Of a stretch of DNA of 64,000 bases, positions 1,952 through 54,080 are shown piece after piece. Made by a program: the position numbers and the translations under genes. Source of the stretch: a phage; assembly GCA_024683775.1 (NCBI GenBank), contig GCA_024683775.1_4106.1. One strand, 5' to 3'. Under the pieces are notes generated by a model. The model worked only from the letters and a program-made list of their open reading frames with translations, ran no database searches and was not told where the DNA came from. Each line of letters starts with the position of its first letter. Within the stretch, counting starts at the first letter, position 1.

Positions 1952-3580
1952 ATGAGCATAAGTTTTAATAACCCACTGGATACTATGACTAGTACTGGTG
2001 CTAATGGATCTTTAGAACTAATAGTGCTTGGTGGTACACCAACTAATCCAAGACCTATTCGTTTTAATTCATCTTCTGTCATTTTACCAGTACAGGCATT
2101 GCCAGCAGGTGAGCAAGGTGCTATGGTATTTGATAGAAATGAGTTGGTGTTAAAATACCACAACGGGACAAGTTGGATTGCAGTATACGATACTGATACA
2201 ATTCTTGAACCAATCCGTATTTCACTCGATGAAGTGAACCGTAAACTGAATTTAAAAGTTGAAACAGTAACATATAGTAGTAGTGCTGTTCCAAGTGCGA
2301 GCATTAGTGGTACGAATTTAAATATCGTATTCCCTATTCCATCAAGTAGCGGTACTGGCCCAACAGGTCTTTATACTTCAATGAAGCCTGGTGCAATTAC
2401 CCAGTACTCATTGACTTCTGGACAAACTGTTGCTAGTATTCGTGAACAGATGTCTGGAGTAACCAATGGTCAAAGTGGTCGTAATGGTTCACAAGGTTCT
2501 CCGTGGAAAACATCTGATGGTTGGTGTTTTGCTGATGGAATGTGGTGGACATGGGATGGTGAAAATGGTACAATCACAAAACAAGTTCCAAATCTTAACC
2601 AAGAAGCATACTTGAAAGGTATTACCACATCAGGCGTAACTAAAACTGATAGTGTGATTGCAAGTAGTGCATCAATTAGTGGTACTGCGATATCAATTGA
2701 ACAACTTCCACCGCACTCATTTAGTTTCAGTGGAACTACTGGTGCTGCTGGTCGTCATAGTCATAGCCAAGCACTAAAAGGTATGGACAGAAGTGGTCTT
2801 AATGCGTTAACATCCAGTAACGACAACGGAATCCCAACTGTAATTAATAACATTAACGAAGCACCTAATCACGTGCATAGTTTCAGTGGTTCAACCAATA
2901 CCGTTGGTAGTGGACAAGCACATACCCACGGAATTAGCAATATTGACGTACCACACTTTAATGTGGCATACTTATATAACATTGCTGAGTCTAACGTTGC
3001 ATTGAGTGAAAAAGTTGCAAACACTCGTTATGTACTTAAAACTGGTGATACAATGTCTGGTTCATTGAGTATCGCAAACAGTGCAACAATTCGTTCGAAT
3101 GATACTTCATTAGTACTTTACTTCCGTAACGCGGCAGGAACTACTGAACGTGCAGCAATTTATCACAGTTCATCAACAAATACATTACGTTTGAGAAGTA
3201 ATGGTGGTTCTGAAGTTACAATTAACTCTTCTGGTGTACTTTATGCTCCATCAGTAACTGGTGCATCATTGTCTATTTCTGGAAACACAGCAACTGTTGC
3301 TAGTAAAAACATCGTCAGATCTATTAACGGTAACAACGCTGATGCAAGCGGTAACGTAACTTTAACACTGGGTGCTGTACAAGATGTTCGTTTAAGTAAA
3401 AGAACATCTACGCGAAGTGTTCCTGATTCTTCTTGGATCTATGCACCAGAAGGTGCTACGCTTGATGGGTTGTTTATTTCCGTAAATGGGAGTTCTGGTA
3501 CACACGTTGAAGGTTATAGTTGGAGATATACACAAAAATTAGTCAATGGTGTATGGACTAACGTAGTAGTGGAGTCTTAA
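1952..3580 (+). CDS. tail fibre protein
   Basis: Ser/Thr/Gly/Asn-rich 542-aa protein with HSHS, HVHS, HTHG His-x-His motifs and LKTGDTMSGSL motif typical of phage tail fibres. Confidence 0.6.
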   Translation: MSISFNNPLDTMTSTGANGSLELIVLGGTPTNPRPIRFNSSSVILPVQALPAGEQGAMVFDRNELVLKYHNGTSWIAVYDTDTILEPIRISLDEVNRKLNLKVETVTYSSSAVPSASISGTNLNIVFPIPSSSGTGPTGLYTSMKPGAITQYSLTSGQTVASIREQMSGVTNGQSGRNGSQGSPWKTSDGWCFADGMWWTWDGENGTITKQVPNLNQEAYLKGITTSGVTKTDSVIASSASISGTAISIEQLPPHSFSFSGTTGAAGRHSHSQALKGMDRSGLNALTSSNDNGIPTVINNINEAPNHVHSFSGSTNTVGSGQAHTHGISNIDVPHFNVAYLYNIAESNVALSEKVANTRYVLKTGDTMSGSLSIANSATIRSNDTSLVLYFRNAAGTTERAAIYHSSSTNTLRLRSNGGSEVTINSSGVLYAPSVTGASLSISGNTATVASKNIVRSINGNNADASGNVTLTLGAVQDVRLSKRTSTRSVPDSSWIYAPEGATLDGLFISVNGSSGTHVEGYSWRYTQKLVNGVWTNVVVES

Positions 3581-3581
3581 T

Positions 3582-4100
3582 ATGAAAACATATACACATT
3601 TCAAAAAATATATCCCAGTAGAAAAGAAACATGGAGATAATGTTCTTTATCTATTGTCAGATGAGGGTGTTGACTGGTATGATTGTCAAAACGAATTCAG
3701 ACAAGATACTTTAAAAGTTCAGTACTCTGACGATGGATATATTGCACAAGCATCATATGATGTAACATTGTTAGTACCGTATGGATACAGTGTTTCTGAG
3801 TTGGAGCATGATGGAGATGAAGATGAAGTAGTTGGTAAAATCTATGATGGAAGTAAAATTTCTGATTATGTTGAATCTACTGATGAAAAGATCAAACGTC
3901 TATCATCTGAGCACCAAGAATTAAGAACCGTAGCAATTAATGAGTTGAATAACATTAAGATGGCGATAGATCTTGAGGTAGCAACTGATTATGAAATAGA
4001 ACTGTTTCCTAAGTTGAAAGCATATGTTCTTGAGCTATCATCTCTAACAACATCTGAATTTAGTAAGAAGAAGTTTTCGTTCCCTGTTAAACCTGTTTAA
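3582..4100 (+). CDS. hypothetical protein, possible tail-fibre assembly/chaperone (by position only)
   Basis: 172-aa acidic ORF immediately downstream of the tail-fibre gene. Confidence 0.3.
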   Translation: MKTYTHFKKYIPVEKKHGDNVLYLLSDEGVDWYDCQNEFRQDTLKVQYSDDGYIAQASYDVTLLVPYGYSVSELEHDGDEDEVVGKIYDGSKISDYVESTDEKIKRLSSEHQELRTVAINELNNIKMAIDLEVATDYEIELFPKLKAYVLELSSLTTSEFSKKKFSFPVKPV

Positions 4101-4108
4101 AAGTTTTT

Positions 4109-4138
4109 TTGGAACAAAATCGTAAGTAGTGATACAAT
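4109..4138 (+). promoter_or_regulatory. promoter (TTGGAA, 18-bp spacer, TACAAT with TG extension)
   Basis: ttggaaCAAAatc box at -35 and tgaTACAAT; member of the GAGACAAAC-box promoter family. Confidence 0.45.
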
Positions 4139-4141
4139 GTA

Positions 4142-4177
4142 GTCATCTTACAGAGGTTGTGAGATGACATTTTTTTT
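4142..4177 (+). terminator. hairpin plus T-run (terminator or attenuator)
   Basis: GTCATCT / AGATGAC 7-bp stem at 4142-4148 and 4162-4168 followed by TTTTTTTT 4170-4177. Confidence 0.45.
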
Positions 4178-4201
4178 CAAAACACATGGAGAAGCAAACA
4201 A

Positions 4202-4507
4202 ATGGCAAAAGCTAAAAAAGAAGTTAAAGTTGAAATTCGTGACCTAAATGATGAACAACGTAAACGTCTAGGTGATGCACTAAACAACGCAGTAGTACAA
4301 CTTACTTTTATTGACGACACCAAAGCATCCTATGCAGATTTCATTAGTTCCATCTCTGATGAACTAGGTATTGATGCATCCGATATCAAACAAGCCGCTC
4401 AACGTATCTACAAAGGCGATTACTTTGATAAACAAAACAAACTCGATAATATCGAAACTATCCTAAGTGTTACTAACAATTTGCCACAAGCAGATGACGA
4501 TTACTAA
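4202..4507 (+). CDS. hypothetical protein
   Basis: 101-aa ORF with GGAG upstream. Confidence 0.45.
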   Translation: MAKAKKEVKVEIRDLNDEQRKRLGDALNNAVVQLTFIDDTKASYADFISSISDELGIDASDIKQAAQRIYKGDYFDKQNKLDNIETILSVTNNLPQADDDY

Positions 4508-4531
4508 TAAGTACTAAAAACTAAACTTTAT

Positions 4532-4560
4532 AGCCTCCAATGAATGGGGGCTTTATTTTT
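4532..4560 (+). terminator. rho-independent terminator
   Basis: AGCCTCCA/TGGGGGCT stem followed by TTTATTTTT. Confidence 0.5.
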
Positions 4561-4589
4561 AACTTAATAAACGTAAAGGAATACAAACG

Positions 4590-7500
4590 ATGTATATCGA
4601 TGCTTATATGGAACGTAAACGTACTGGTGATATTTTGCACGTAGCAGAACGTAAAAACGGTAAACGTATTCTACGTCAGTTGGACCCAGTATATGAATAT
4701 TATGTTGAATCTCCTACTGGTGAACACAAAACAATTTATGGAACTAACGCAAAGCATTTGGAGTTTGAAACTCAATCACAGATGAATAAAAGCGTTGAGC
4801 AACATAAAAATGAAGGTCTACGTATTTTTGAAAGTGATTGCAACATTACCTTCAAAACGTTGGCTAGAGAATACATGGGTAAAGGTTCGCCGGATTTGAA
4901 CGTAGCATTTTTCGATATCGAAACAGACTTCCATAAGAAGTTTGGTTATGCTCCACCATCAGATCCATTCAACCGTGTAACTGCAATTTCTCTATATCAA
5001 TCATGGACTGGTAAGGATTATGTACTGACTTTGCCACCAACTGATATGGAAATGTACGAAGCACAAGATATTGTTCGTCAGTTAAACGAAGAAACTAACG
5101 ACCCTAACAGTACTGTCATCCTTTATACGGATGAGAAAGAAATGTTTATGGAGTTCTTTAGTCTAATCGATGACTCTGATGTAATTTCAGGTTGGAACAG
5201 TGAATTCTTTGATATTCCATATATGGTCAACCGTACCAAGAAAATCTTCAACGAAGCAACTACTGCTCGTTGGTGTTTGTGGAATAAAAAACCAAATGCT
5301 CGTGAAGCTGATAACTTTGGTAAAACTGTAGTAACATATGATCTTATTGGTCGTGTACACTTAGACTATCTTGCTCTTTATAAGAAACATGCTGGTCAAG
5401 TTGAACAGTCGTACAAACTAGATTATATTGCTGAAAAGGTAACTAAAGAAAACAAAGTATCCTATGAAGGTTCATTGGATAAACTATACCGTGAAGATTA
5501 TATTACATTCTTGCGTTATTCTAAGCAGGATAGTATTCTTCTAAAGAAAATTGATGCTAAATGTGACTTTATCAACCTGCACAACCGTCTTGCTCATAAA
5601 GAATGTGTACTAATTAGTACTACAATGGGTTCGGTTGCACTAATCGACACTGCTATCATCAACCTTGCTCACAGTCGCGGTGAAGTTGTTTTTAACAAAG
5701 CACCGAAAGATGATATTGAGATAGATCCAGAGATGGAGTACTATGGTGAAGAAGGTGATGAAGAAGATGAGAAAATCAGTGCAAAAGCTGCTGGTGCATG
5801 GGTTCAAGATCCAGTTCTTGGCCTTGTTAGCGATTTGGGATGTACAGACTTTAACTCATTGTATCCAACTGTACTACGTACACTTGGCATGAGTACTGAA
5901 TGTATTCTTGGACAACTTCGTCAAGACTACACTGATGCATATCTTGCTGCTAAAGTACAAGAGCAAAAAGCTAAATCCAAATCTAAAGCGTTTGAACCTG
6001 ATTGGACCGCTGCATGGCATGGTTTATTTGCTGCTGTAGAATTTACAATGGTTCATGAAAAATCTGACAAAACTTTGATTGTTGATTTAGAAGATGGTAG
6101 TTCGTTCAATGCAACTGGTAAAGAATTGTATGATATTATCTTTGCTGAAGACAGTACTATTGTACTAAGTGCTAACGGAACACTTTTTGATAAGTCTAAG
6201 TATGGTGTAATTCCAGATATTCTTACTCAATGGTATTCTGAGCGTAAAGCACAACAAAAAATGGTAATCGACTACAAACACATGTACAGTGATGGGTGGG
6301 AATTCAATGGTTCTGAGAAGGTTGAACCTTTGCTATCTAACTACACAAGTGGTACAATGTTCCGTACAAACTTACATGACAATGATCCTGTTTATCTATT
6401 ACGTATTGCTATTGGTAAAGGTCAATGGGAAGAAGTTGCAAAACTCATTGTGGAAAATGGTTTAGTACTGAAAGATGGTCGTATTTTCTGTGCAACGGAA
6501 GATAAGAATTACTTCAAACAGCAAAGTGCATTCTGGAAACAGAACCAGCAAATTCGTAAGATTCTTCTAAACAGTCTATATGGTGCACTATTGAACAAAG
6601 GTTCACGTTTCTTTGATAAGCGTTTAGGTCAGTCCGTTACCTTAACTGGTCGTTCTATGACTAAACATATGGCAAGCCGTATCAATGAAATCACTACTGG
6701 TGTTTATAATCACCAAGGTGGCTCTGTAATTTACGGTGATACTGACTCCGTTTACTTCAGTGTAACTCATTACCTGAAAGAACAAGGTATTCCATATAAT
6801 CTTTCTAAAGAAGAAATTGTTGACATGTATATCAAAATCGGTGATGAAGTTGGTGAATCATTCCCTTCATTCATGAACGAAATGTTCAATACTGGTATTG
6901 AGAAAGGTAAGATTGTTGGTGCAGACCTAGAGATGGTCGGTTCCCGTGGTCTATTCCTGAAGAAAAAGCGTTATGCAATTCTCAAGTACTGGGAAGATGG
7001 TTTCCGTAAAGATGTTGATGGAAAGCCTGGTGAAATTAAAGCGATGGGTCTTGAAATTAAACGTTCAGATACGCCAAAATACATCCAGAACTTCCTAGAA
7101 GAGACTCTAATTGCATTGCTGGTGGGTGAGTCTGAAGCTCAACTTAAACAGCGTGTACGTGACTTTAAAGAGGTATTTAAAGACATGCCTGTACACGAAA
7201 AGGGTTCACCGAAAACTGTTAAGAACTATACCAACTTAGAAGCAGAATATGAAGTTTCTGGTAAATGTAAAGTTGGTCACGTATTAGCAGGTATTCAATG
7301 GAACCGTCTACGTGAAGTATATGATGACAAAACTGTACCTGAAGTAACTGACGGTACAAAAGTAATTGTATGTAACTTAAAAGATAACCCGATGGGTATT
7401 AAAGCAGTAGGTTACCCAATTGACTGTGTGGAATATCTACCTGAATGGTTCTTAGAACTACCATTTGATACAGAGAAAATGGAAGAAATAGTTCTAACTA

Positions 7501-8057: not shown

Positions 8058-8087
8058 TTGAGACAAGCATCATTCACGAGATATAAT
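8058..8087 (+). promoter_or_regulatory. promoter with GAGACAAAC-type -35 box
   Basis: ttGAGACAAgc at 8058-8068, 18-nt spacer, TATAAT at 8082-8087. Confidence 0.5.
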
Positions 8088-8154: not shown

Positions 8155-8886
8155 ATGGATCTACGCAACGTACTACGTGACCTAGTTAACACTACCAACG
8201 GCATCGACTTTTCTTGTATCGCAGTTAGCAGTGAAGACCGTGGTGATGGACAGCGTGTTTACATGGAAGCATACACCGATGACCGCACCCTAGTTATGCG
8301 TGCTCACACTAAAGAAGACGTACCAGAAGTTCAAGGTCGTTTTGGTCTTGGTAACCTAGGTCTTCTACAGGGTCTAATGTCTCTAAAAACTTATAGTACT
8401 GAAGGAACTACTATCACTTCTAATTTGAAAGATGGTGCAGTTAAGAGCCTAGCATTCAAAGCAGAAGATGCAAGCACTACTTTCATGGTTCAACCAGAAA
8501 AACTAATTCCAGCCCAGCCTCGTTTCCACGAACAACCATATGACGTACAGGTTACACCTAGTGCAGCTAAAGTTCAGGAACTAAAAAGCTTCTCTGGTGT
8601 GTTTAAATCTTTCAGTTCTCTAGTAACTCCATACACTGAAGGTGATACTCTTTACTTCCACGTTGGTGAGAAGAACAAAAGTAACCACGTTGGTGCACTA
8701 GCATTCTCTAAAACTGAAGGTGAACTAGGTCTTGGTTTTGGTTATAACATTGACCGTGTTCTACAAGCTCTATCCCGCGTTTCTAACGCAGAATCTGTTA
8801 CCCTTGGTATTACCAAAACTGGTATGCTAAACGTAACTCTAGACACTGGTATTGCGGTATACAAGATTTACGTAACAGGTTGCTAA
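8155..8886 (+). CDS. sliding clamp (T4 gp45-like)
   Basis: 243 aa; NVLRDLVNTTNGI and FGLGNLGLLQGLMSL align by eye with the T4 gp45 N-terminal region; highly biased codon usage; position near polymerase. Confidence 0.55.
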   Translation: MDLRNVLRDLVNTTNGIDFSCIAVSSEDRGDGQRVYMEAYTDDRTLVMRAHTKEDVPEVQGRFGLGNLGLLQGLMSLKTYSTEGTTITSNLKDGAVKSLAFKAEDASTTFMVQPEKLIPAQPRFHEQPYDVQVTPSAAKVQELKSFSGVFKSFSSLVTPYTEGDTLYFHVGEKNKSNHVGALAFSKTEGELGLGFGYNIDRVLQALSRVSNAESVTLGITKTGMLNVTLDTGIAVYKIYVTGC

Positions 8887-8896
8887 TATAAATAAT

Positions 8897-8924
8897 GGGG
8901 AACATGGAGTTCCCCAAATTTTTG
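8897..8924 (+). terminator. rho-independent terminator
   Basis: GGGGAAC-ATGGA-GTTCCCC hairpin then T-run. Confidence 0.6.
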
Positions 8925-8952
8925 ATTTAAAAATAAGTAAAGGAAGACAAAA

Positions 8953-10181: not shown

Positions 10182-10214
10182 AAAAAGGAGAGCAAAAGCT
10201 CTCCTTTTCTTTTA
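10181..10214. terminator. bidirectional terminator between convergent genes
   Basis: A-run, GGAGAGC-AAAA-GCTCTCC hairpin, T-run. Confidence 0.6.
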
Positions 10215-11651: not shown

Positions 11652-16908
<5,257 letters not shown>

Positions 16909-26007: not shown

Positions 26008-26985
26008 ATGGCTCATCACGGCGTGTTTATGTACCCTTATAACCAAGAAGTATCATTGGGCAATTTTAATATGCCATATAGCAATGAGAAACTTACAATA
26101 TACAGAGGTGCAAATAACAATTTATCATTCACAGTGCATAACGCTGATGGAAAATATACATTACTAAAAGATAACGAATATCTAACATTCATGATTTTTG
26201 ATGCTAGAAACAATACTAAATTATTCGATGTAGTTTTGGATAAACAAAAACCATCATGGCTATCAGAAAGTGGACAAGCAAGACAAACATTAGGCAATAG
26301 TAAAAAAGTATATTATGGATGTATTGTTCCTGCTGGTGTAATTCAGGATACTAGTCCTGGTTCAAAATATAGATGGAGTATTACTAAAGTAACAATGGAT
26401 GGTTCCTTGATTGAACCTACACAGTACTTATACACTGGTCTTGATTATGAAGCCTCTGCTGAATTGATCATTTCCGACCAAGCTGCTCCTGTGTTTGTGC
26501 CAAGTATTGAAGTATCTGTTAATAAAAACCCAGCATGGACTACCATCAAACGCTTGTATCATGAACCAATCGCTCGTGGCGTTATTGGTGAATTTGATAT
26601 AATGGCAACATCTCCCCTTCCTGCACAAATGCAGTACGGATTAGTTGATGGTCTTAGTACTATTGCAATGTACTTTGATAAATTCATTGGTAGAATTCAA
26701 TTACAAGGATGTTTGTGTAATAACGTACCAACTGATAACGAAAACTATAAATGGTTTATTGTTAAATTGGATGGTAAAGAATATATCGAAAATGATATTG
26801 ATGAAAATGGATTCCCTAAAGCGTTAGATGGGATTCAAGCATTTAATTTTAAAGGTAATTACATGTGGTTGCGATTGGTTGTTTGTATTCATCCTAAGAT
26901 CGTTCCAGTTCCTTATGACTATGCGGCAGTAAGAAAAGTCTATGACCCACTACTGTCAGTTCCTAAAATTTTGATTCGCAGGTGA
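26008..26985 (+). CDS. hypothetical late protein (probable structural)
   Basis: 326-aa ORF from ATG 26008 with GGAAGG RBS; the track ORF from 25774 extends upstream without RBS. Confidence 0.45.
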   Translation: MAHHGVFMYPYNQEVSLGNFNMPYSNEKLTIYRGANNNLSFTVHNADGKYTLLKDNEYLTFMIFDARNNTKLFDVVLDKQKPSWLSESGQARQTLGNSKKVYYGCIVPAGVIQDTSPGSKYRWSITKVTMDGSLIEPTQYLYTGLDYEASAELIISDQAAPVFVPSIEVSVNKNPAWTTIKRLYHEPIARGVIGEFDIMATSPLPAQMQYGLVDGLSTIAMYFDKFIGRIQLQGCLCNNVPTDNENYKWFIVKLDGKEYIENDIDENGFPKALDGIQAFNFKGNYMWLRLVVCIHPKIVPVPYDYAAVRKVYDPLLSVPKILIRR

Positions 26986-27011
26986 GACAAAACAAGTGTT
27001 TGTGCTATAAT
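26982..27011 (+). promoter_or_regulatory. promoter with GAGACAAAC-type -35 box
   Basis: gtGAGACAAAac at 26982-26993, 18-nt spacer, tgcTATAAT with TATAAT at 27006-27011. Confidence 0.5.
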
Positions 27012-30477: not shown

Positions 30478-30498
30478 TTGTGATAAATATCATAAAGC

Positions 30499-33404: not shown

Positions 33405-33434
33405 CTGAGACAAACAAAAATACGATGCTATAAT
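33405..33434 (+). promoter_or_regulatory. promoter with GAGACAAAC-type -35 box
   Basis: ctGAGACAAACaa at 33405-33417, 18-nt spacer, tgcTATAAT with TATAAT at 33429-33434. Confidence 0.5.
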
Positions 33435-50507: not shown

Positions 50508-50537
50508 TCGGGGCATTTAATGTCCCGATATTTTTTT
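50508..50537 (+). terminator. rho-independent terminator
   Basis: TCGGGGCAT-TTA-ATGTCCCGA hairpin then TATTTTTTTT. Confidence 0.55.
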
Positions 50538-50565
50538 GAGACAAACAAAGCATTGATGATACAAT
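50536..50565 (+). promoter_or_regulatory. promoter with GAGACAAAC-type -35 box
   Basis: ttGAGACAAACaa at 50536-50548, 18-nt spacer, tgaTACAAT with TACAAT at 50560-50565. Confidence 0.5.
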
Positions 50566-50600: not shown

Positions 50601-52565
50601 ATGGCTAAGAAAGAAAGTGCTGTTCTTCAGGAACATGATGTACAACGTCTAAACGATTATCAACATGCTCGCTTACGTACTGAGATGTATCTGGGTTCAC
50701 GTTCTGTTCACGAAAGTCAAGTACTGATCTTTGGTGAGTCTGGATATGAAGTTAAAAACGTTGAGTGGGTTCCTGCAATTCTAACTGCTACTCGTGAAAT
50801 TATCGATAACAGCTTAGATGAATTTAAAAAAGCTGGAACAAAAGAGCCAGTACTCAAAGTTGATTTCAATGAAGAAGAGTTATCCTTTGAGATCAGTGAT
50901 AATGGTCGTGGTATTCCAATTGACTATGTTCCTGAGTATCAGAAAAACCTTTGTACAATGGTAATGACTGAAACTAAAACTGGTCGTAACTTTGATGATT
51001 CGAAGCGTGATGAAACAATCGGTCAGAATGGTTTGGGTGGTTCAGTTGCAATGATTGTAAGTTCTAAAGCTGAACTTGAAATCCATCGCCAAGGTCGCCC
51101 GTATAAAACACAAAGTAGCAATGACGGATATGACGGTTTTTATAAGTTCAATCAGAAGTTCGAAGAAGGAACTATTATGTTTCCTGAACTTCATGTACAT
51201 GAACCAACTATTCGTAAGGTTCAAGCAGATAAGACTGGAACAACAATTCGCTTCACTCTGAGTTCTGAGGTATTTCCTAACCGTAAACTGCCAACCGAAT
51301 TGTTATACAGTATTTTGAAAGAAATGTCTGCTGCTAACCCTACCTATAAGATTTTCCTTAACGGTAAGCGTATTGCAATTAAAGGAACTACTGAAAAAGC
51401 ACTATTCAACGCATCTAAACTGATGCAATTGAACGTTAAAGATGAATCATTCAACTTTAACAGTACTTTCTACATTGTTCCTAATGCAGTATCGGGTATG
51501 AACACTAACTTCCATATGCATGGTTTGGTTAACAATGCCCCAGCATTTGATGGCGGTACACATCTTGATACATTCAAGAAATTCTTCTCATTAGGAGTCG
51601 GGACTGCTCTAGAGAAAGAATCAAAGAAACGCAAGATGAAACCTAACCGCTCTGATATTGAAGAAGGTCTGTTGATTTATAACGTAACAACGATGAAAGC
51701 ACCATCATTCAACTCACAGATTAAATCAAAACTAACCAACGAAAACGTTATTCGTCCAATTCAACAAGCGATGAATTCTGAATGGTTCGATGAATTAGTC
51801 AAGAAGAACAAAGAGTGGATTGATGAAATTTTTGAACGCTGTGCTGCTCGTACCAACAAGAAAGATGCAGAAGAAGATCGCCGTCTAGCTAAAAAACTAC
51901 TGAAAGGTAAAGTTGCAAAACTATTGGACAGTACAGGTACGGATCGTTCCAAATGCATCCTACTAATTGCTGAGGGTGATTCTGCTATTTCCAACATGGC
52001 GAGTGCTCGTGATCCTAAAGTTCATGGTATTCTACCATTGCGTGGTAAAATTATGAACGTCAGTGGTAATGAGAAAACCAAAGAATTAATGGATTCAATG
52101 GCATTGCATGATATAATGGCGAGTATCAACCTGATTCCTGGTGTAAAAGCGGAAAGAGCAGACCTTAACTATGGTAAGCTTTATATCTGTGCCGATGAAG
52201 ATGAGGATGGAAAGAACATTGGTGCTTTAGTATGTAACTTCCTATACAAATTCTGGCCTGAACTATTCCAAGACCCAGAGAATCCATTTGTGTATATATT
52301 CAAAACACCATTCATCATTCTAGAGAAAGGTAAGGAATCCAAGTACTACTATGGTCATGATGTACATGAATACAACCCAGATGATTGGAAAGGTTGGAAA
52401 GCAACCCGTGCGAAAGGATTGGGTACGTTAGAAAAAGCAAACTTCCGTGATGCATTCACTAACAGTGTTGCAGTAGCGATTACAGATGATGGTCGCCTTG
52501 GTGAAACTCTTGATTTGATTTTCAACAAGAAACGTGCTGATGATCGTAAGAACTGGATGGAATAA
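50601..52565 (+). CDS. DNA topoisomerase II large subunit (GyrB-like; T4 gp39+gp60 equivalent)
   Basis: 654 aa; GHKL ATPase motifs (DNGRGIP, GLGGSVA) and Toprim region (LIAEGDSA). Confidence 0.85.
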   Translation: MAKKESAVLQEHDVQRLNDYQHARLRTEMYLGSRSVHESQVLIFGESGYEVKNVEWVPAILTATREIIDNSLDEFKKAGTKEPVLKVDFNEEELSFEISDNGRGIPIDYVPEYQKNLCTMVMTETKTGRNFDDSKRDETIGQNGLGGSVAMIVSSKAELEIHRQGRPYKTQSSNDGYDGFYKFNQKFEEGTIMFPELHVHEPTIRKVQADKTGTTIRFTLSSEVFPNRKLPTELLYSILKEMSAANPTYKIFLNGKRIAIKGTTEKALFNASKLMQLNVKDESFNFNSTFYIVPNAVSGMNTNFHMHGLVNNAPAFDGGTHLDTFKKFFSLGVGTALEKESKKRKMKPNRSDIEEGLLIYNVTTMKAPSFNSQIKSKLTNENVIRPIQQAMNSEWFDELVKKNKEWIDEIFERCAARTNKKDAEEDRRLAKKLLKGKVAKLLDSTGTDRSKCILLIAEGDSAISNMASARDPKVHGILPLRGKIMNVSGNEKTKELMDSMALHDIMASINLIPGVKAERADLNYGKLYICADEDEDGKNIGALVCNFLYKFWPELFQDPENPFVYIFKTPFIILEKGKESKYYYGHDVHEYNPDDWKGWKATRAKGLGTLEKANFRDAFTNSVAVAITDDGRLGETLDLIFNKKRADDRKNWME

Positions 52566-52576
52566 TATAGATTAAT

Positions 52577-52599
52577 GGGGAACATGGTGTTCCCCTTTT
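52577..52599 (+). terminator. rho-independent terminator
   Basis: GGGGAACA-TGG-TGTTCCCC then TTTT; near-identical to the hairpin at 8897. Confidence 0.65.
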
Positions 52600-52615
52600 A
52601 CAAAGAGACAATGGA

Positions 52616-54028
52616 ATGGCTAAAAGTAAAAAAACCGAAAATCAAAGCATCGATAACCAAACACTAACTCTACTAGATTATAACAGTTCTGATTATGTGA
52701 ATACCACATCACTAGAATATTCAATGTACACACTAGACCGTGCAATCCCTGGGATTGATGGCCTTAAGAGTTCACAACGTAAAGCAATATTCACCCTCTC
52801 AAAAGTTAGTGGTGAAATCAAAACTGTATCATGTGCTGGTAAAATGATTAGTGATGGTATCTATCTACACGGTGATACATCTGCATCTGGAACTCTCCAG
52901 AACCTAGCATCACCAGTGGTAAACAACTACCCACTCATTGGTAAACGTGGTGGTTTTGGTACACAAGTAAACAGTACTCCAGCTTCTGCTCGTTATACTT
53001 ATGTTAAAAAGAATAAAAGTACTGAAATGTTAGTGCTACGTGACGCTGACATTATTCCAATGAAAGAGAACTATGATGGTACTACAATGGAACCAAGTTT
53101 CTTTTTACCTATCATCCCACTATCTTTGTTTGGTAACGATAGTATGTCAGTAGGTTATAAGAGTACAATTCTACCACATAAGATTGAAGATGTTATTGAT
53201 AACTGTATTCGTGCTATTGATAAAAAACCATTAAAAGAAATGACTCCATACTATGTTTCATGTGGTGCAAGTGATATCGTAACTAAGCTTGATGAAAACA
53301 AATATGAGTTCTATGGTAAAGCACAAGTAATTGATGCCAGTACTGTTAAAGTGACAGGTCTACCACCAAACTACAGTATTGAGAAATTCATCGAGAAACT
53401 CATTAAGATGAGCGATGATGGTGATATTCGTGATTATGATAATGATAGTACTGATGTTATTGATATCACAATCAAACTACCACGCGGTACATCTGCTAAA
53501 TGGGTGGAGAAAGATGTAATTGAATACTTTGGCATTCATAAGAAGATGACACAAATCCTAACTGTTCTAGGTGAGAATGGTAAGGTTAAAGTCTATGATA
53601 ACACAATGGATTTGATTAAGGACTTTGTTGAATTCCGTTTCAAATACTATGTGAAACGCTATGAGAAGAAACTTGATGATTGTGCTGCTGAAGTACGTTA
53701 TAAGATTCTAATCAAAGAATGTTTTGATAATGATATGATTGCTAAGGTTAAGGGTTTTGCTAACCGTTCAGAAATGGTTGAGTTTGTTAAATCATTAAAC
53801 ACTGAAATCGAAGCAACCGATGAGAATATTCAAAGCATCGTAAACTTCCCATCATATCGTTGGACCCAAGACAATTATCAATCAGTACTAGCTGATATTC
53901 AACATAACTTGGATTTAATGGATGAATATAACAATCTCCTGTCGAATCATGATTTGATTTGGAACATCTATAAAGATGAGTTGAAAGAACTACGTAAGAT
54001 TGACTTCACGCCAAAAACTGAAGATTGA
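52616..54028 (+). CDS. DNA topoisomerase II medium subunit (GyrA-like; T4 gp52-like)
   Basis: 470 aa; SMYTLDRAIPGIDGLKSSQRKAIF breakage-reunion region. Confidence 0.8.
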   Translation: MAKSKKTENQSIDNQTLTLLDYNSSDYVNTTSLEYSMYTLDRAIPGIDGLKSSQRKAIFTLSKVSGEIKTVSCAGKMISDGIYLHGDTSASGTLQNLASPVVNNYPLIGKRGGFGTQVNSTPASARYTYVKKNKSTEMLVLRDADIIPMKENYDGTTMEPSFFLPIIPLSLFGNDSMSVGYKSTILPHKIEDVIDNCIRAIDKKPLKEMTPYYVSCGASDIVTKLDENKYEFYGKAQVIDASTVKVTGLPPNYSIEKFIEKLIKMSDDGDIRDYDNDSTDVIDITIKLPRGTSAKWVEKDVIEYFGIHKKMTQILTVLGENGKVKVYDNTMDLIKDFVEFRFKYYVKRYEKKLDDCAAEVRYKILIKECFDNDMIAKVKGFANRSEMVEFVKSLNTEIEATDENIQSIVNFPSYRWTQDNYQSVLADIQHNLDLMDEYNNLLSNHDLIWNIYKDELKELRKIDFTPKTED

Positions 54029-54038
54029 TTATAAACAG

Positions 54039-54068
54039 GGAAGACCTTTATGGGTCTTCCTTGTCCTT
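54039..54068 (+). terminator. rho-independent terminator
   Basis: GGAAGACC-TTTATG-GGTCTTCC then TTGTCCTTT. Confidence 0.5.
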
Positions 54069-54070
54069 TA

Positions 54071-54080
54071 TATAAATAAT
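54071..54080 (+). promoter_or_regulatory. late-promoter-like element TATAAATAAT
   Basis: Exact TATAAATA 39 nt upstream of ATG 54117. Confidence 0.4.

What the first reader, a model, noticed from the sequence alone, without database searches (positions are those of the whole stretch)
8897..8924. Near-identical terminator hairpin reused at two loci
AATGGGGAACATGG(A/T)GTTCCCC occurs after the clamp gene (8891-8915) and after the topoisomerase large-subunit gene (52572-52595), identical apart from one loop base. Reuse of a defined terminator module suggests recombinational spread or a shared processing signal.
Basis: seen in the sequence. Interest (0 to 1): 0.2.

Follow-up and report, generated by a model that had tools for sequence, protein, structure and literature searches.

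The report
Two look-alike terminator hairpins, jumbo phage
Two nearly identical small RNA hairpins sit after two replication genes of a giant E. coli phage; they are ordinary terminator-like stem-loops that each locus has carried for a long time, not a spreading module, so the finding is real but of minor interest.

Summary
AATGGGGAACATGG[A/T]GTTCCCC occurs at 8894-8915 and 52574-52595 (0 expected by chance), and nowhere else in the 374.7-kb genome of a 99.6-99.8%-identical relative, the Asteriusvirus jumbo coliphage fEgEco12. Each copy is a 7-bp G+C-rich stem-loop of about -11 kcal/mol on the sense strand, 11 nt after a stop codon. The GenBank record of the related phage G17 already annotates both as ARNOLD-predicted terminators.

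Comparative data change the interpretation. Both loci carry a hairpin across several genera of RaK2-like jumbo phages, with compensatory and G·U changes.
- Site 1, after the gene some records call a clamp, is a typical intrinsic terminator in relatives, with variable stem and loop plus a T-run.
- Site 2, between the topoisomerase II subunit genes, is a strongly conserved hairpin without a T-run in other genera. The downstream subunit gene has no promoter candidate of its own, so the hairpin must be leaky.

The near-identity is lineage-specific:
- In PBECO4-type phages the loops differ at 4 of 5 positions.
- In JNE01 the site-2 stem is entirely different.

A single old short-patch copy from site 1 to site 2 is plausible but unproven. 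A dispersed module or a shared sequence-specific signal is not supported. Interest is low.

The parts
8897..8915 (+). Site-1 stem-loop GGGGAAC-ATGGA-GTTCCCC (stem 8897-8903 with 8909-8915, loop 8904-8908). A flanking U8896:A8916 pair can extend it to 8 bp.
   Evidence: listed as terminator-like, 8 pairs, 5 GC; -11.2 kcal/mol for the 19-mer, z = -2.5; 100% paired across 6 orthologues, 2 pairs with compensatory change.
8916..8924 (+). Site-1 tail AAATTTTTG. The T-run (8919-8923) is separated from the stem by AAA, so it is an atypical or weak terminator tail.
   Evidence: Relatives outside Asteriusvirus have a T-run directly after the stem. A phosphoesterase gene present there in relatives is missing here, so this tail lies at an indel junction.
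8887..8894 (+). TATAAATA, the exact T4-type late-promoter consensus, 2 nt upstream of the site-1 stem. It is conserved in all Asteriusvirus copies examined.
   Evidence: ATAAATA is reported as the putative late promoter of the related phage CBB (PMC5259590). Function here is inferred only.
8155..8886 (+). Upstream ORF (243 aa), annotated 'sliding clamp' in some records. Site 1 stays attached to its 3' end in all relatives.
   Evidence: The clamp identity was not confirmed.
8059..8087 (+). TGAGACA-N16-TATAAT promoter-like site upstream of ORF 8155-8886, the probable start of the unit that site 1 ends.
   Evidence: Same motif at 26983, 33406 and 50537. It resembles the divergent RpoD-like class described for CBB/GAP32 (PMC5259590).
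52577..52595 (+). Site-2 stem-loop GGGGAAC-ATGGT-GTTCCCC, in the 50-nt spacer between the topoisomerase II large- and medium-subunit genes.
   Evidence: -11.6 kcal/mol; a hairpin in the 49-54 nt spacer of all 16 genomes examined, spacer MFE -10.2 to -15.1; 100% paired; A:U/U:A swap and G:U variants.
52596..52601 (+). Site-2 tail TTTTAC: only four T. It is followed by the ribosome-binding region AAAGAGACAATGGA and the ATG at 52616.
   Evidence: It is not listed by the terminator scan, which needs at least 5 T in 8. ARNOLD did call the orthologous site in G17.
50601..52565 (+). Topoisomerase II large subunit gene (GyrB-like), upstream of site 2.
   Evidence: Pfam DNA_gyraseB, Toprim, HATPase_c; annotation.
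52616..54028 (+). Topoisomerase II medium subunit gene (GyrA-like), downstream of site 2. No promoter candidate of its own was found.
   Evidence: Pfam DNA_topoisoIV, 4e-64. No promoter-like site is listed on the + strand between 50565 and 55990 in the 60 strongest rows (33 weaker ones were not shown). No TGAGACA or ATAAATA motif there.
50537..50565 (+). TGAGACA-N16-TACAAT promoter-like site that would drive the topoisomerase L-M unit.
54035..54064 (+). Strong hairpin (13 pairs) that closes the topoisomerase unit, followed at 54071 by TATAAATA.
   Evidence: Annotated as an ARNOLD terminator in G17.

Best explanation
These are two separate, anciently resident RNA stem-loops at the 3' ends of two replication-gene cistrons. 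The phage is an Asteriusvirus jumbo coliphage transcribed by host RNA polymerase.

Site 1 is the intrinsic terminator, or in this clade a weakened attenuator, that ends the short unit running from promoter ~8059 through ORF 8155-8886. A T4-type late promoter (TATAAATA, 8887-8894) abuts it. Late transcripts would therefore start inside the 5' arm and escape the hairpin on their way into the Zn-ribbon, GroES and structural genes.

Site 2 is an intercistronic stem-loop inside the topoisomerase II large-medium subunit operon. The downstream gene has no promoter candidate, so the hairpin must be read through most of the time. It most likely acts as a leaky terminator and/or a barrier to 3' exonucleases that sets the relative amounts or stability of the two cistrons.

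The near-identity in this phage is a lineage-specific state. The Asteriusvirus site-2 element looks as if it was overwritten once, in an ancestor, by a site-1-type terminator through short-patch ectopic conversion of roughly 25-35 nt. The two copies have drifted independently since.

Shown:
- the hairpins and their positions;
- the two-copy count;
- conservation and compensatory change;
- the absence of concerted evolution.

Inferred:
- termination or attenuation;
- use of the late promoter;
- the conversion event.
For: Structure and position:
- Both are stable 7-8 bp stem-loops, 11 nt after a stop codon on the sense strand.
- Both are annotated as ARNOLD terminators in phage G17.

Ancient and orthologous:
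- A hairpin is present at site 1 in all 14 related loci and at site 2 in 15 other genomes spanning several genera.
- Every cell is paired, with compensatory changes: A:U to U:A; an inserted pair in 3300012988; G:C to A:U and A:U to G:C in contig 2974588491.
- G·U variants are compatible only with the + strand RNA: UB, 2974578479 and JNE01.

Site 1 as a terminator:
- In relatives the stem and loop vary freely but a T-run follows directly.
- The 40 nt after the stop are less conserved than the coding sequence (0.67 versus 0.80).
- It stays with the upstream gene although the downstream gene differs.

Site 2 as a leaky intercistronic element:
- Other genera have no T-run (GAAATAAC).
- The spacer is as conserved as the flanking coding sequence (0.815 versus 0.79).
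- No promoter candidate precedes the medium-subunit gene.

Two copies only; blastn finds 2 places per genome.

No concerted evolution.

Derived, site-1-like state of Asteriusvirus site 2:
- Edit distance is 5-7 to the nearest outgroup site-1 elements but 10-12 to most site-2 orthologues.
- Within-group site-2 distance is 5.1.

Late-promoter context: ATAAATA lies just upstream of ORFs in 8 of 10 + strand cases. It is embedded in or next to terminator hairpins at 30483, 47565 and 54072. The CBB paper reports the same motif before structural genes.
Against: No transcript data exist for any Asteriusvirus in the searched literature, so neither termination nor processing is shown.

Both tails are poor by textbook criteria:
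- Site 1 has AAA between the stem and the T-run.
- Site 2 has only four T and fails the local scan.

TATAAATA is not enriched as an octamer in the window (3 found, 4.4 expected).

The conversion scenario rests on about 27 nt per sequence:
- Two site-2 orthologues, 3300042256 and 3300031414_1, show the same A:U stem variant with a site-2-type loop. The stem swap can therefore arise without conversion.
- Convergence on a terminator form cannot be excluded.
Confidence: 0.6

Rival explanations
1. No copying at all. The two hairpins descend independently from already similar ancestral stems (GGGGAAC and GGGGTAC). Ordinary point mutation plus selection for a stable G+C-clamped stem brought them to 18/19 identity in this lineage by convergence or chance.
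For: - Both loci have GGGG[A/T]AC stems across genera.
- GGGG...CCCC stems are the house style of this genome: 50 GGGG-N-CCCC candidates, and many such stems in the census.
- The A:U variant of the site-2 stem arose in another lineage while keeping a site-2-type loop (3300042256 and 3300031414_1).
- Site-1 loops drift freely (ATGGA, ATAGT, ACTAT, ATGAT), so a 4-of-5 loop match in one sub-clade could be luck.
Against: In Asteriusvirus the stem pair, three loop bases, the tail (GAAATAAC to TTTTAC) and the 5' flank (TAATATA...) all changed towards the site-1 form together. That is many coincident substitutions in an element otherwise as conserved as coding sequence. Other pairs of 24-26 nt near-identical terminators exist in the same genome, so some copying process does operate.
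Confidence: 0.3
2. The shared sequence is a specific recognition signal, for example for a phage or host RNA-binding protein or endoribonuclease. It would coordinate processing or translation of the two replication-gene messages.
For: - Near-identity including loop bases in this phage.
- Outside Asteriusvirus the site-2 loop (AGGAA) and spacer are unusually conserved.
- T4 offers a precedent for hairpin operators near ribosome-binding sites of replication genes, the gene 43 operator (PMC3014915).
Against: - Identity between the sites is not maintained. PBECO4, UB and G17 differ at 4 of 5 loop positions between the sites. JNE01 and Turkey5 have an unrelated stem at site 2 while site 1 matches the window.
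- In other genera the two sites differ in stem, loop and tail.
- There are only two copies in 375 kb.
- There is no Rfam match.
Confidence: 0.08
3. They are members of a mobile promoter-stem-loop cassette family (PeSL-like) that mediates modular gene shuffling.
For: - This genome does carry at least 20 PeSL-like cassettes in its early, terminally repeated region. Each has a strong sigma-70 promoter, then a GGGGAGAA/GGGGAA-type stem-loop, then ACTAA and a Shine-Dalgarno sequence.
- A one-gene indel lies exactly at the site-1 hairpin.
- RaK2 has an ORF inserted at the site-2 position.
Against: - Neither site has the promoter half. Site 1 has only a 9/12 match overlapping the stem, and nothing is listed for site 2.
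- The stems differ from the early-cassette stems.
- Both sit in the conserved replication block rather than a hyperplastic early region.
- There are two copies only.
Confidence: 0.04
4. A DNA-level element (cruciform, recombination or replication signal), or a T4 gene-60-like translational bypass across the 50-nt gap at site 2.
For: - The sequences are near-palindromic.
- The gap between the topoisomerase genes is exactly 50 nt, and ATGGAAT occurs at both of its ends in the window.
Against: - The G·U variants pair only in the + strand RNA and would be C·A mismatches on the other strand.
- After a hypothetical landing on GAA at 52614 the frame stops after 16 further sense codons and is not the medium-subunit frame.
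- The ATGGAAT repeat is absent in other genera.
Confidence: 0.02

Closest known systems
Rho-independent (intrinsic) transcription terminators of E. coli and T4-type phages
   Same: G+C-rich 7-8 bp stem, 3-5 nt loop, on the sense strand just after a stop codon, with T residues downstream. ARNOLD predicted both in phage G17. Relatives at site 1 have the full hairpin-plus-T-run form, some with a UUCG loop.
   Different: In this phage the T-run is displaced (site 1) or only four residues long (site 2). Site 2 orthologues in other genera have no T-run at all, and the downstream essential subunit gene depends on read-through.
PeSLs, the composite promoter-early/stem-loop cassettes of T4-like phages (Arbiol 2010, PMC2839356; Comeau 2014, PMC4122927)
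   Same: Short conserved regulatory stem-loops repeated within one phage genome and proposed as points of recombination. The same genome has a large PeSL-like family in its early region. An indel boundary lies at site 1.
   Different: No promoter half, two copies only, located in the conserved replication module, and a different stem sequence.
Intercistronic stem-loops that stabilise the upstream segment of polycistronic mRNAs (e.g. REP hairpins in malEFG, the puf operon hairpins). Cited from general knowledge, not tested here.
   Same: A stable hairpin without a functional U-tract between two cistrons of one operon, conserved in structure rather than sequence. This matches site 2 in most genera.
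   Different: No decay or processing data exist. The two gene products are expected in equal amounts in a type II topoisomerase, so the benefit of differential stability is unclear.
T4 late promoters placed inside RNA structures, and the T4 gene 43 hairpin operator (review PMC3014915)
   Same: A TATAAATA motif placed so that late transcripts would begin within a hairpin formed by longer early/middle transcripts. A hairpin lies a short distance upstream of the ribosome-binding site of a replication gene.
   Different: In the T4 examples the structure masks a ribosome-binding site or binds the gene's own product. Here the hairpins do not include the Shine-Dalgarno sequence, and no binding protein is known.

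Membership tests
Intrinsic (rho-independent) terminator | Stable G+C-rich stem-loop in the transcript | tested here: met
   -11.2 and -11.6 kcal/mol for the 19-mers, z about -2.5. 5 G:C pairs of 7-8.
Intrinsic (rho-independent) terminator | Uridine tract immediately 3' of the stem | tested here: inconclusive
   Site 1: CCCC-AAA-TTTTT passes the local scan only through the window that starts 0-2 nt after an extended stem. Site 2: TTTTAC has 4 T and is not listed by the scan. ARNOLD accepted both orthologues in G17. Site-2 orthologues in other genera have no T-run.
Intrinsic (rho-independent) terminator | Located at the end of a transcription unit on the coding strand | tested here: inconclusive
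   Site 1: yes, after ORF 8155-8886 with promoter-like motifs on either side. Site 2: inside an apparent two-gene operon, with no promoter candidate for the downstream gene.
Intrinsic (rho-independent) terminator | RNA 3' ends map to the U-tract; termination in vitro | not testable with these tools
   No Asteriusvirus transcriptome was found in the paper library.
PeSL (promoter-early stem-loop cassette) | Early sigma-70 promoter joined to the stem-loop | tested here: not met
   The best candidate at site 1 is a 9/12 match whose -10 abuts the stem (8867-8896). None is listed at site 2. True cassettes in the same genome have TTGCAA/TTGACA-N17-TATAAT 12 nt upstream of the stem.
PeSL (promoter-early stem-loop cassette) | Many copies dispersed among variable early genes | tested here: not met
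   Two copies in 374,733 bp, both in the conserved replication block.
   Only two copies with up to 4 mismatches, and only these two match GGGG[AT]AC-N2-9-GT[AT]CCCC. Both positions are occupied by orthologous hairpins in other genera.
Any curated RNA family (Rfam 15) | Match at gathering threshold | tested here: not met
   0 matches in the whole window.

The most novel reading that the evidence does not exclude
The site-2 stem-loop is a dedicated, so far undescribed cis-regulatory RNA of RaK2-like jumbo phages. It lies in a 49-54 nt spacer that is as conserved as the flanking coding sequence, with an AGGAA loop and no U-tract. It would control the stoichiometry, stability or translation of the two topoisomerase II subunit messages. 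In Asteriusvirus it was overwritten by a copy of the neighbouring replication-gene terminator through short-patch ectopic gene conversion. That would show that such elements are structurally constrained but interchangeable in sequence.
Probability: 0.2. Interest if true: 0.3.

Novelty: already known. Interest (0 to 1): 0.12.

Why it matters
It matters little on its own. Both hairpins belong to a well-known kind, predicted intrinsic terminators or intercistronic stem-loops, and are already annotated as such in a related phage record.

The modest added value is comparative:
- Regulatory hairpins in these 350-385 kb phages are conserved as structures for a long time.
- Their sequences can be replaced in short patches.
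- One of them, between the topoisomerase subunit genes, is under unusually strong constraint without looking like a terminator in most genera.

Anyone mapping transcription units of Asteriusvirus or RaK2-like phages, for example for phage-therapy engineering, should treat site 2 as a read-through element rather than an operon boundary.

Tried and rejected
- IMG/VR scan for GGGGAAC-N2-7-GTTCCCC. The bare stem is a generic hairpin, so the scan gave no per-genome counts.
- MAFFT alignment of the whole site-2 spacers (A2). It put the 3' arms out of register, so pair counts were made on equal-length subsets (A3, A4) and by direct folding.
- Confirming the 'clamp' label. Pfam, PHROGs, PDB sequence search, hhalign against T4 gp45 and a single-sequence AlphaFold model all failed to confirm it. 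I ran no further search on this side issue.
- T4 gene-60-like translational bypass across the 50-nt gap. Rejected because the landing frame is wrong, a stop follows early, and the repeat is not conserved.
- PeSL membership. Rejected because there is no promoter half and only two copies.
- A donor elsewhere for the divergent JNE01 site-2 hairpin. None was found: one place per genome, in JNE01 and Turkey5 only.
- Rfam: no family matched.
- Literature: no transcript maps for Asteriusvirus. The fEgEco12 and Sharanji papers do not discuss promoters or terminators.

Full report
**What is there**

The 22-mer AATGGGGAACATGGWGTTCCCC occurs exactly twice in the window, at 8894-8915 and 52574-52595, both on the + strand. 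No further match appears with up to 3 mismatches, and none appears in 100 dinucleotide shuffles. The core of each copy is a perfect 7-bp stem, GGGGAAC/GTTCCCC, with a 5-nt loop: ATGGA at site 1 and ATGGT at site 2. As RNA the 19-mers fold at -11.2 and -11.6 kcal/mol, about 2.5 sd below shuffles. The similarity extends 5' to the stop codons, giving a 33-column local alignment.

**Genomic setting**

The window is 99.6-99.8% identical, over the two tested segments, to jumbo coliphage fEgEco12 and its siblings WPEC3/5, Ecwhy_1, BF17 and others. It is about 87-90% identical to the 121Q/PBECO4/G17 group. These phages form the genus Asteriusvirus (PMC13070987).

- **Site 1** lies 11 nt after the stop of ORF 8155-8886 and before a Zn-ribbon gene, a GroES gene and a virion protein gene.
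- **Site 2** lies in the 50-nt spacer between the GyrB-like large and GyrA-like medium subunits of topoisomerase II.

The 'clamp' label for ORF 8155-8886 is depositor annotation only. Pfam, PHROGs, PDB sequence search and hhalign against T4 gp45 gave nothing, and a single-sequence structure model was unusable.

**Genome-wide count**

I assembled the complete fEgEco12 genome (374,733 bp) from eight fetched segments. With up to 4 mismatches the 22-mer occurs only at 213708 and 257388, which are the two window sites. The looser pattern GGGG[AT]AC-N2-9-GT[AT]CCCC also finds only these two. A blastn search of the 37-mer against 50,697 phage records finds two places per genome in most Asteriusvirus records. 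It finds one place in JNE01, Turkey5 and UB. There is no dispersed family.

**Already annotated**

The GenBank record of phage G17 annotates both orthologous hairpins as 'putative transcriptional terminator, determined by ARNOLD', at -13.3 and -12.5 kcal/mol.

**Comparative anatomy**

I retrieved the orthologous loci from IMG/VR and GenBank for a dozen RaK2-like jumbo phages, with 70-84% protein identity.

*Site 1* is present in all of them.
- Stem and loop vary: GGGGAAC+TTA, GGGAAC+TTCG, GGGGGAA+TG, AGGGAGC+GTAAT and others.
- A T-run follows directly, which is the classic terminator picture.
- The 40 nt after the stop are less conserved than the coding sequence (0.67 versus 0.80).
- All stem cells pair, and two pairs changed on both sides.
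- The hairpin stays with the upstream gene even though the next gene differs. Other genera have a phosphoesterase gene of roughly 205 aa there, which is absent from the whole fEgEco12 genome. This probably explains the odd AAATTTTTG tail in the window.

*Site 2* behaves differently.
- In other genera it reads GGGGTAC-AGGAA-GTACCCC-GAAATAAC-AAAGAGGCAAAGGAATG, with no T-run.
- The whole 49-54 nt spacer is as conserved as the flanking coding sequence (0.815 versus 0.79).
- The stem is kept through an A:U/U:A swap and an inserted pair (GGGGATAC/GTATCCCC).
- G·U variants occur in UB, 2974578479 and JNE01. They work only in the + strand RNA.

**How the two sites relate**

The near-identity holds only for the window's clade. 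JNE01 shares the window's site-1 hairpin but has a different site 2.

- Within Asteriusvirus the site-1 loop is ATGGA (window, JNE01), ATAGT (121Q) or ACTAT (PBECO4, UB, G17).
- Site 2 keeps ATGGT throughout those phages.
- JNE01 and Turkey5 have an unrelated site-2 stem, AGGGAGTGC-AGGGT-GTACTCCCT.

There is thus no concerted evolution and no requirement that the two sites share sequence. This argues against a common sequence-specific signal.

The Asteriusvirus site-2 element is nevertheless a derived state. Relative to its orthologues it changed the fifth stem pair, three loop bases, the tail (GAAATAAC to TTTTAC) and the 5' flank. All these changes go towards the site-1 form.

| Comparison | Edit distance |
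|---|---|
| Asteriusvirus site 2 to nearest outgroup site-1 elements | 5-7 |
| Asteriusvirus site 2 to most site-2 orthologues | 10-12 |
| Among outgroup site-2 elements | 5.1 |

(All.) One old short-patch conversion from site 1 to site 2 is the most economical reading. However, the tract is short, and another lineage acquired the same stem pair without the rest. Convergence therefore remains possible.

**Function**

No sigma-70-like site is listed between 50565 and 55990 on the + strand in the 60 strongest rows (33 weaker ones were not shown). No TGAGACA-N16-TATAAT motif and no ATAAATA motif lies between the topoisomerase promoter candidate at 50537-50565 and the end of the medium-subunit gene. 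The medium-subunit gene therefore depends on read-through of site 2. Site 2 can be at most a leaky terminator. It may instead, or in addition, protect the upstream cistron from 3' exonucleases.

At site 1 the exact T4 late-promoter octamer TATAAATA (8887-8894) sits 2 nt before the stem and is conserved across Asteriusvirus. In the window ATAAATA mostly lies just upstream of ORFs. It is found inside the loops of terminator hairpins at 30483 and 47565, and directly after one at 54072. The CBB paper reports ATAAATA before structural genes and a gp55-like sigma factor in this phage group (PMC5259590). I infer that late transcripts start within the 5' arm of the site-1 hairpin and so escape it. This step is not shown.

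**Context in the same genome**

A census of 145 hairpins in fEgEco12 shows that reuse of hairpins is common elsewhere.
- The terminally repeated early region has at least 20 cassettes. Each consists of a strong promoter, a GGGGAGAA- or GGGGAA-type stem-loop and a ribosome-binding site. They resemble the PeSLs of T4-like phages (PMC4122927).
- There are other two-copy terminator pairs, one of them at window 10183-10208.

The present pair lacks the promoter half and lies in the conserved replication block, so it is not a PeSL.

**Verdict**

This is a real but ordinary feature: two predicted terminator-like stem-loops, already annotated in a relative. The mildly interesting residue is the strongly conserved, T-less intercistronic hairpin of the topoisomerase operon in other genera, and its apparent replacement in Asteriusvirus.

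Noticed in passing
fEgEco12 genome 1.7-20.6 kb and its terminal repeat copy at 355-374 kb (loci L149, L156); outside the window: At least 20 copies of a cassette AGTAC-TTGCAA/TTGACA-N17-TATAAT-gttttacatcaa-[GGGGAGAAATGATTCTCCCC or related GGGGAA/GCGGGAA stems]-ACTAA-GAGGA-ATG between small early genes. It is a PeSL-like promoter plus 5' stem-loop family with no T-run after the stem.
   Followed up: partly
window 10183-10208 (bidirectional hairpin between convergent genes) and fEgEco12 170371-170396: A second pair of near-identical terminators, AAAAGGAGAGCAAA[A/T]GCTCTCCTTTT (25/26 identical, similarity about 49 columns with flanks). A third pair, AAAGGTTGACTTCGGTCAACCTTT, lies at fEgEco12 315179 and 321133. 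Short terminator duplication seems recurrent in this genome.
   Followed up: partly
window 30483, 47565, 54072, 8888 (also 1566, 1913, 15558, 45567): The T4-late-like motif ATAAATA lies just upstream of ORFs. At 30483 and 47565 it is inside the loop of a hairpin followed by a T-run. This suggests composite terminator/late-promoter elements in which late transcripts start inside the terminator.
   Followed up: partly
window 8059-8087, 26983-27011, 33406-33434, 50537-50565 (and 16881-16908): Recurrent promoter-like motif TGAGACA-N16-TA(T/C)AAT upstream of replication genes: ORF 8155, primase, exonuclease, topoisomerase and the gp32-like gene. It is probably the local version of the divergent RpoD-like class (TGAAACG) reported for CBB/GAP32.
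   Followed up: partly
L005 2282-2905, L162 2281-2886 versus window 8916-8952: A phosphoesterase-like gene of about 205 aa (MSTPRFIADLHLGH...) sits between the site-1 hairpin and the Zn-ribbon gene in other genera. It is absent from the whole fEgEco12 genome, so an indel boundary lies exactly at the hairpin.
   Followed up: yes
L011 (contig of 345,809 bp, the length I recall for RaK2) 3465-4962: An ORF of more than 1.5 kb is inserted immediately after the stop of the topoisomerase large-subunit gene, at the position occupied by the site-2 hairpin in other phages. It is possibly a mobile or homing-type gene.
   Followed up: no
window 8155-8886: The ORF annotated 'sliding clamp' in some GenBank records has no Pfam hit, falls in a PHROG of unknown function, has no PDB sequence match and shows no hhalign similarity to T4 gp45. 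The CBB paper states that no gp45 homologue was detected in that relative.
   Followed up: partly
fEgEco12 332-348 kb (minus strand); outside the window: A family of GCCAGTAC-loop-GTACTGGC hairpins, each followed by T-runs on the minus strand, separates a tandem array of RCC1-like ('chromosome condensation regulator') paralogues. The terminators were evidently duplicated with their genes.
   Followed up: no
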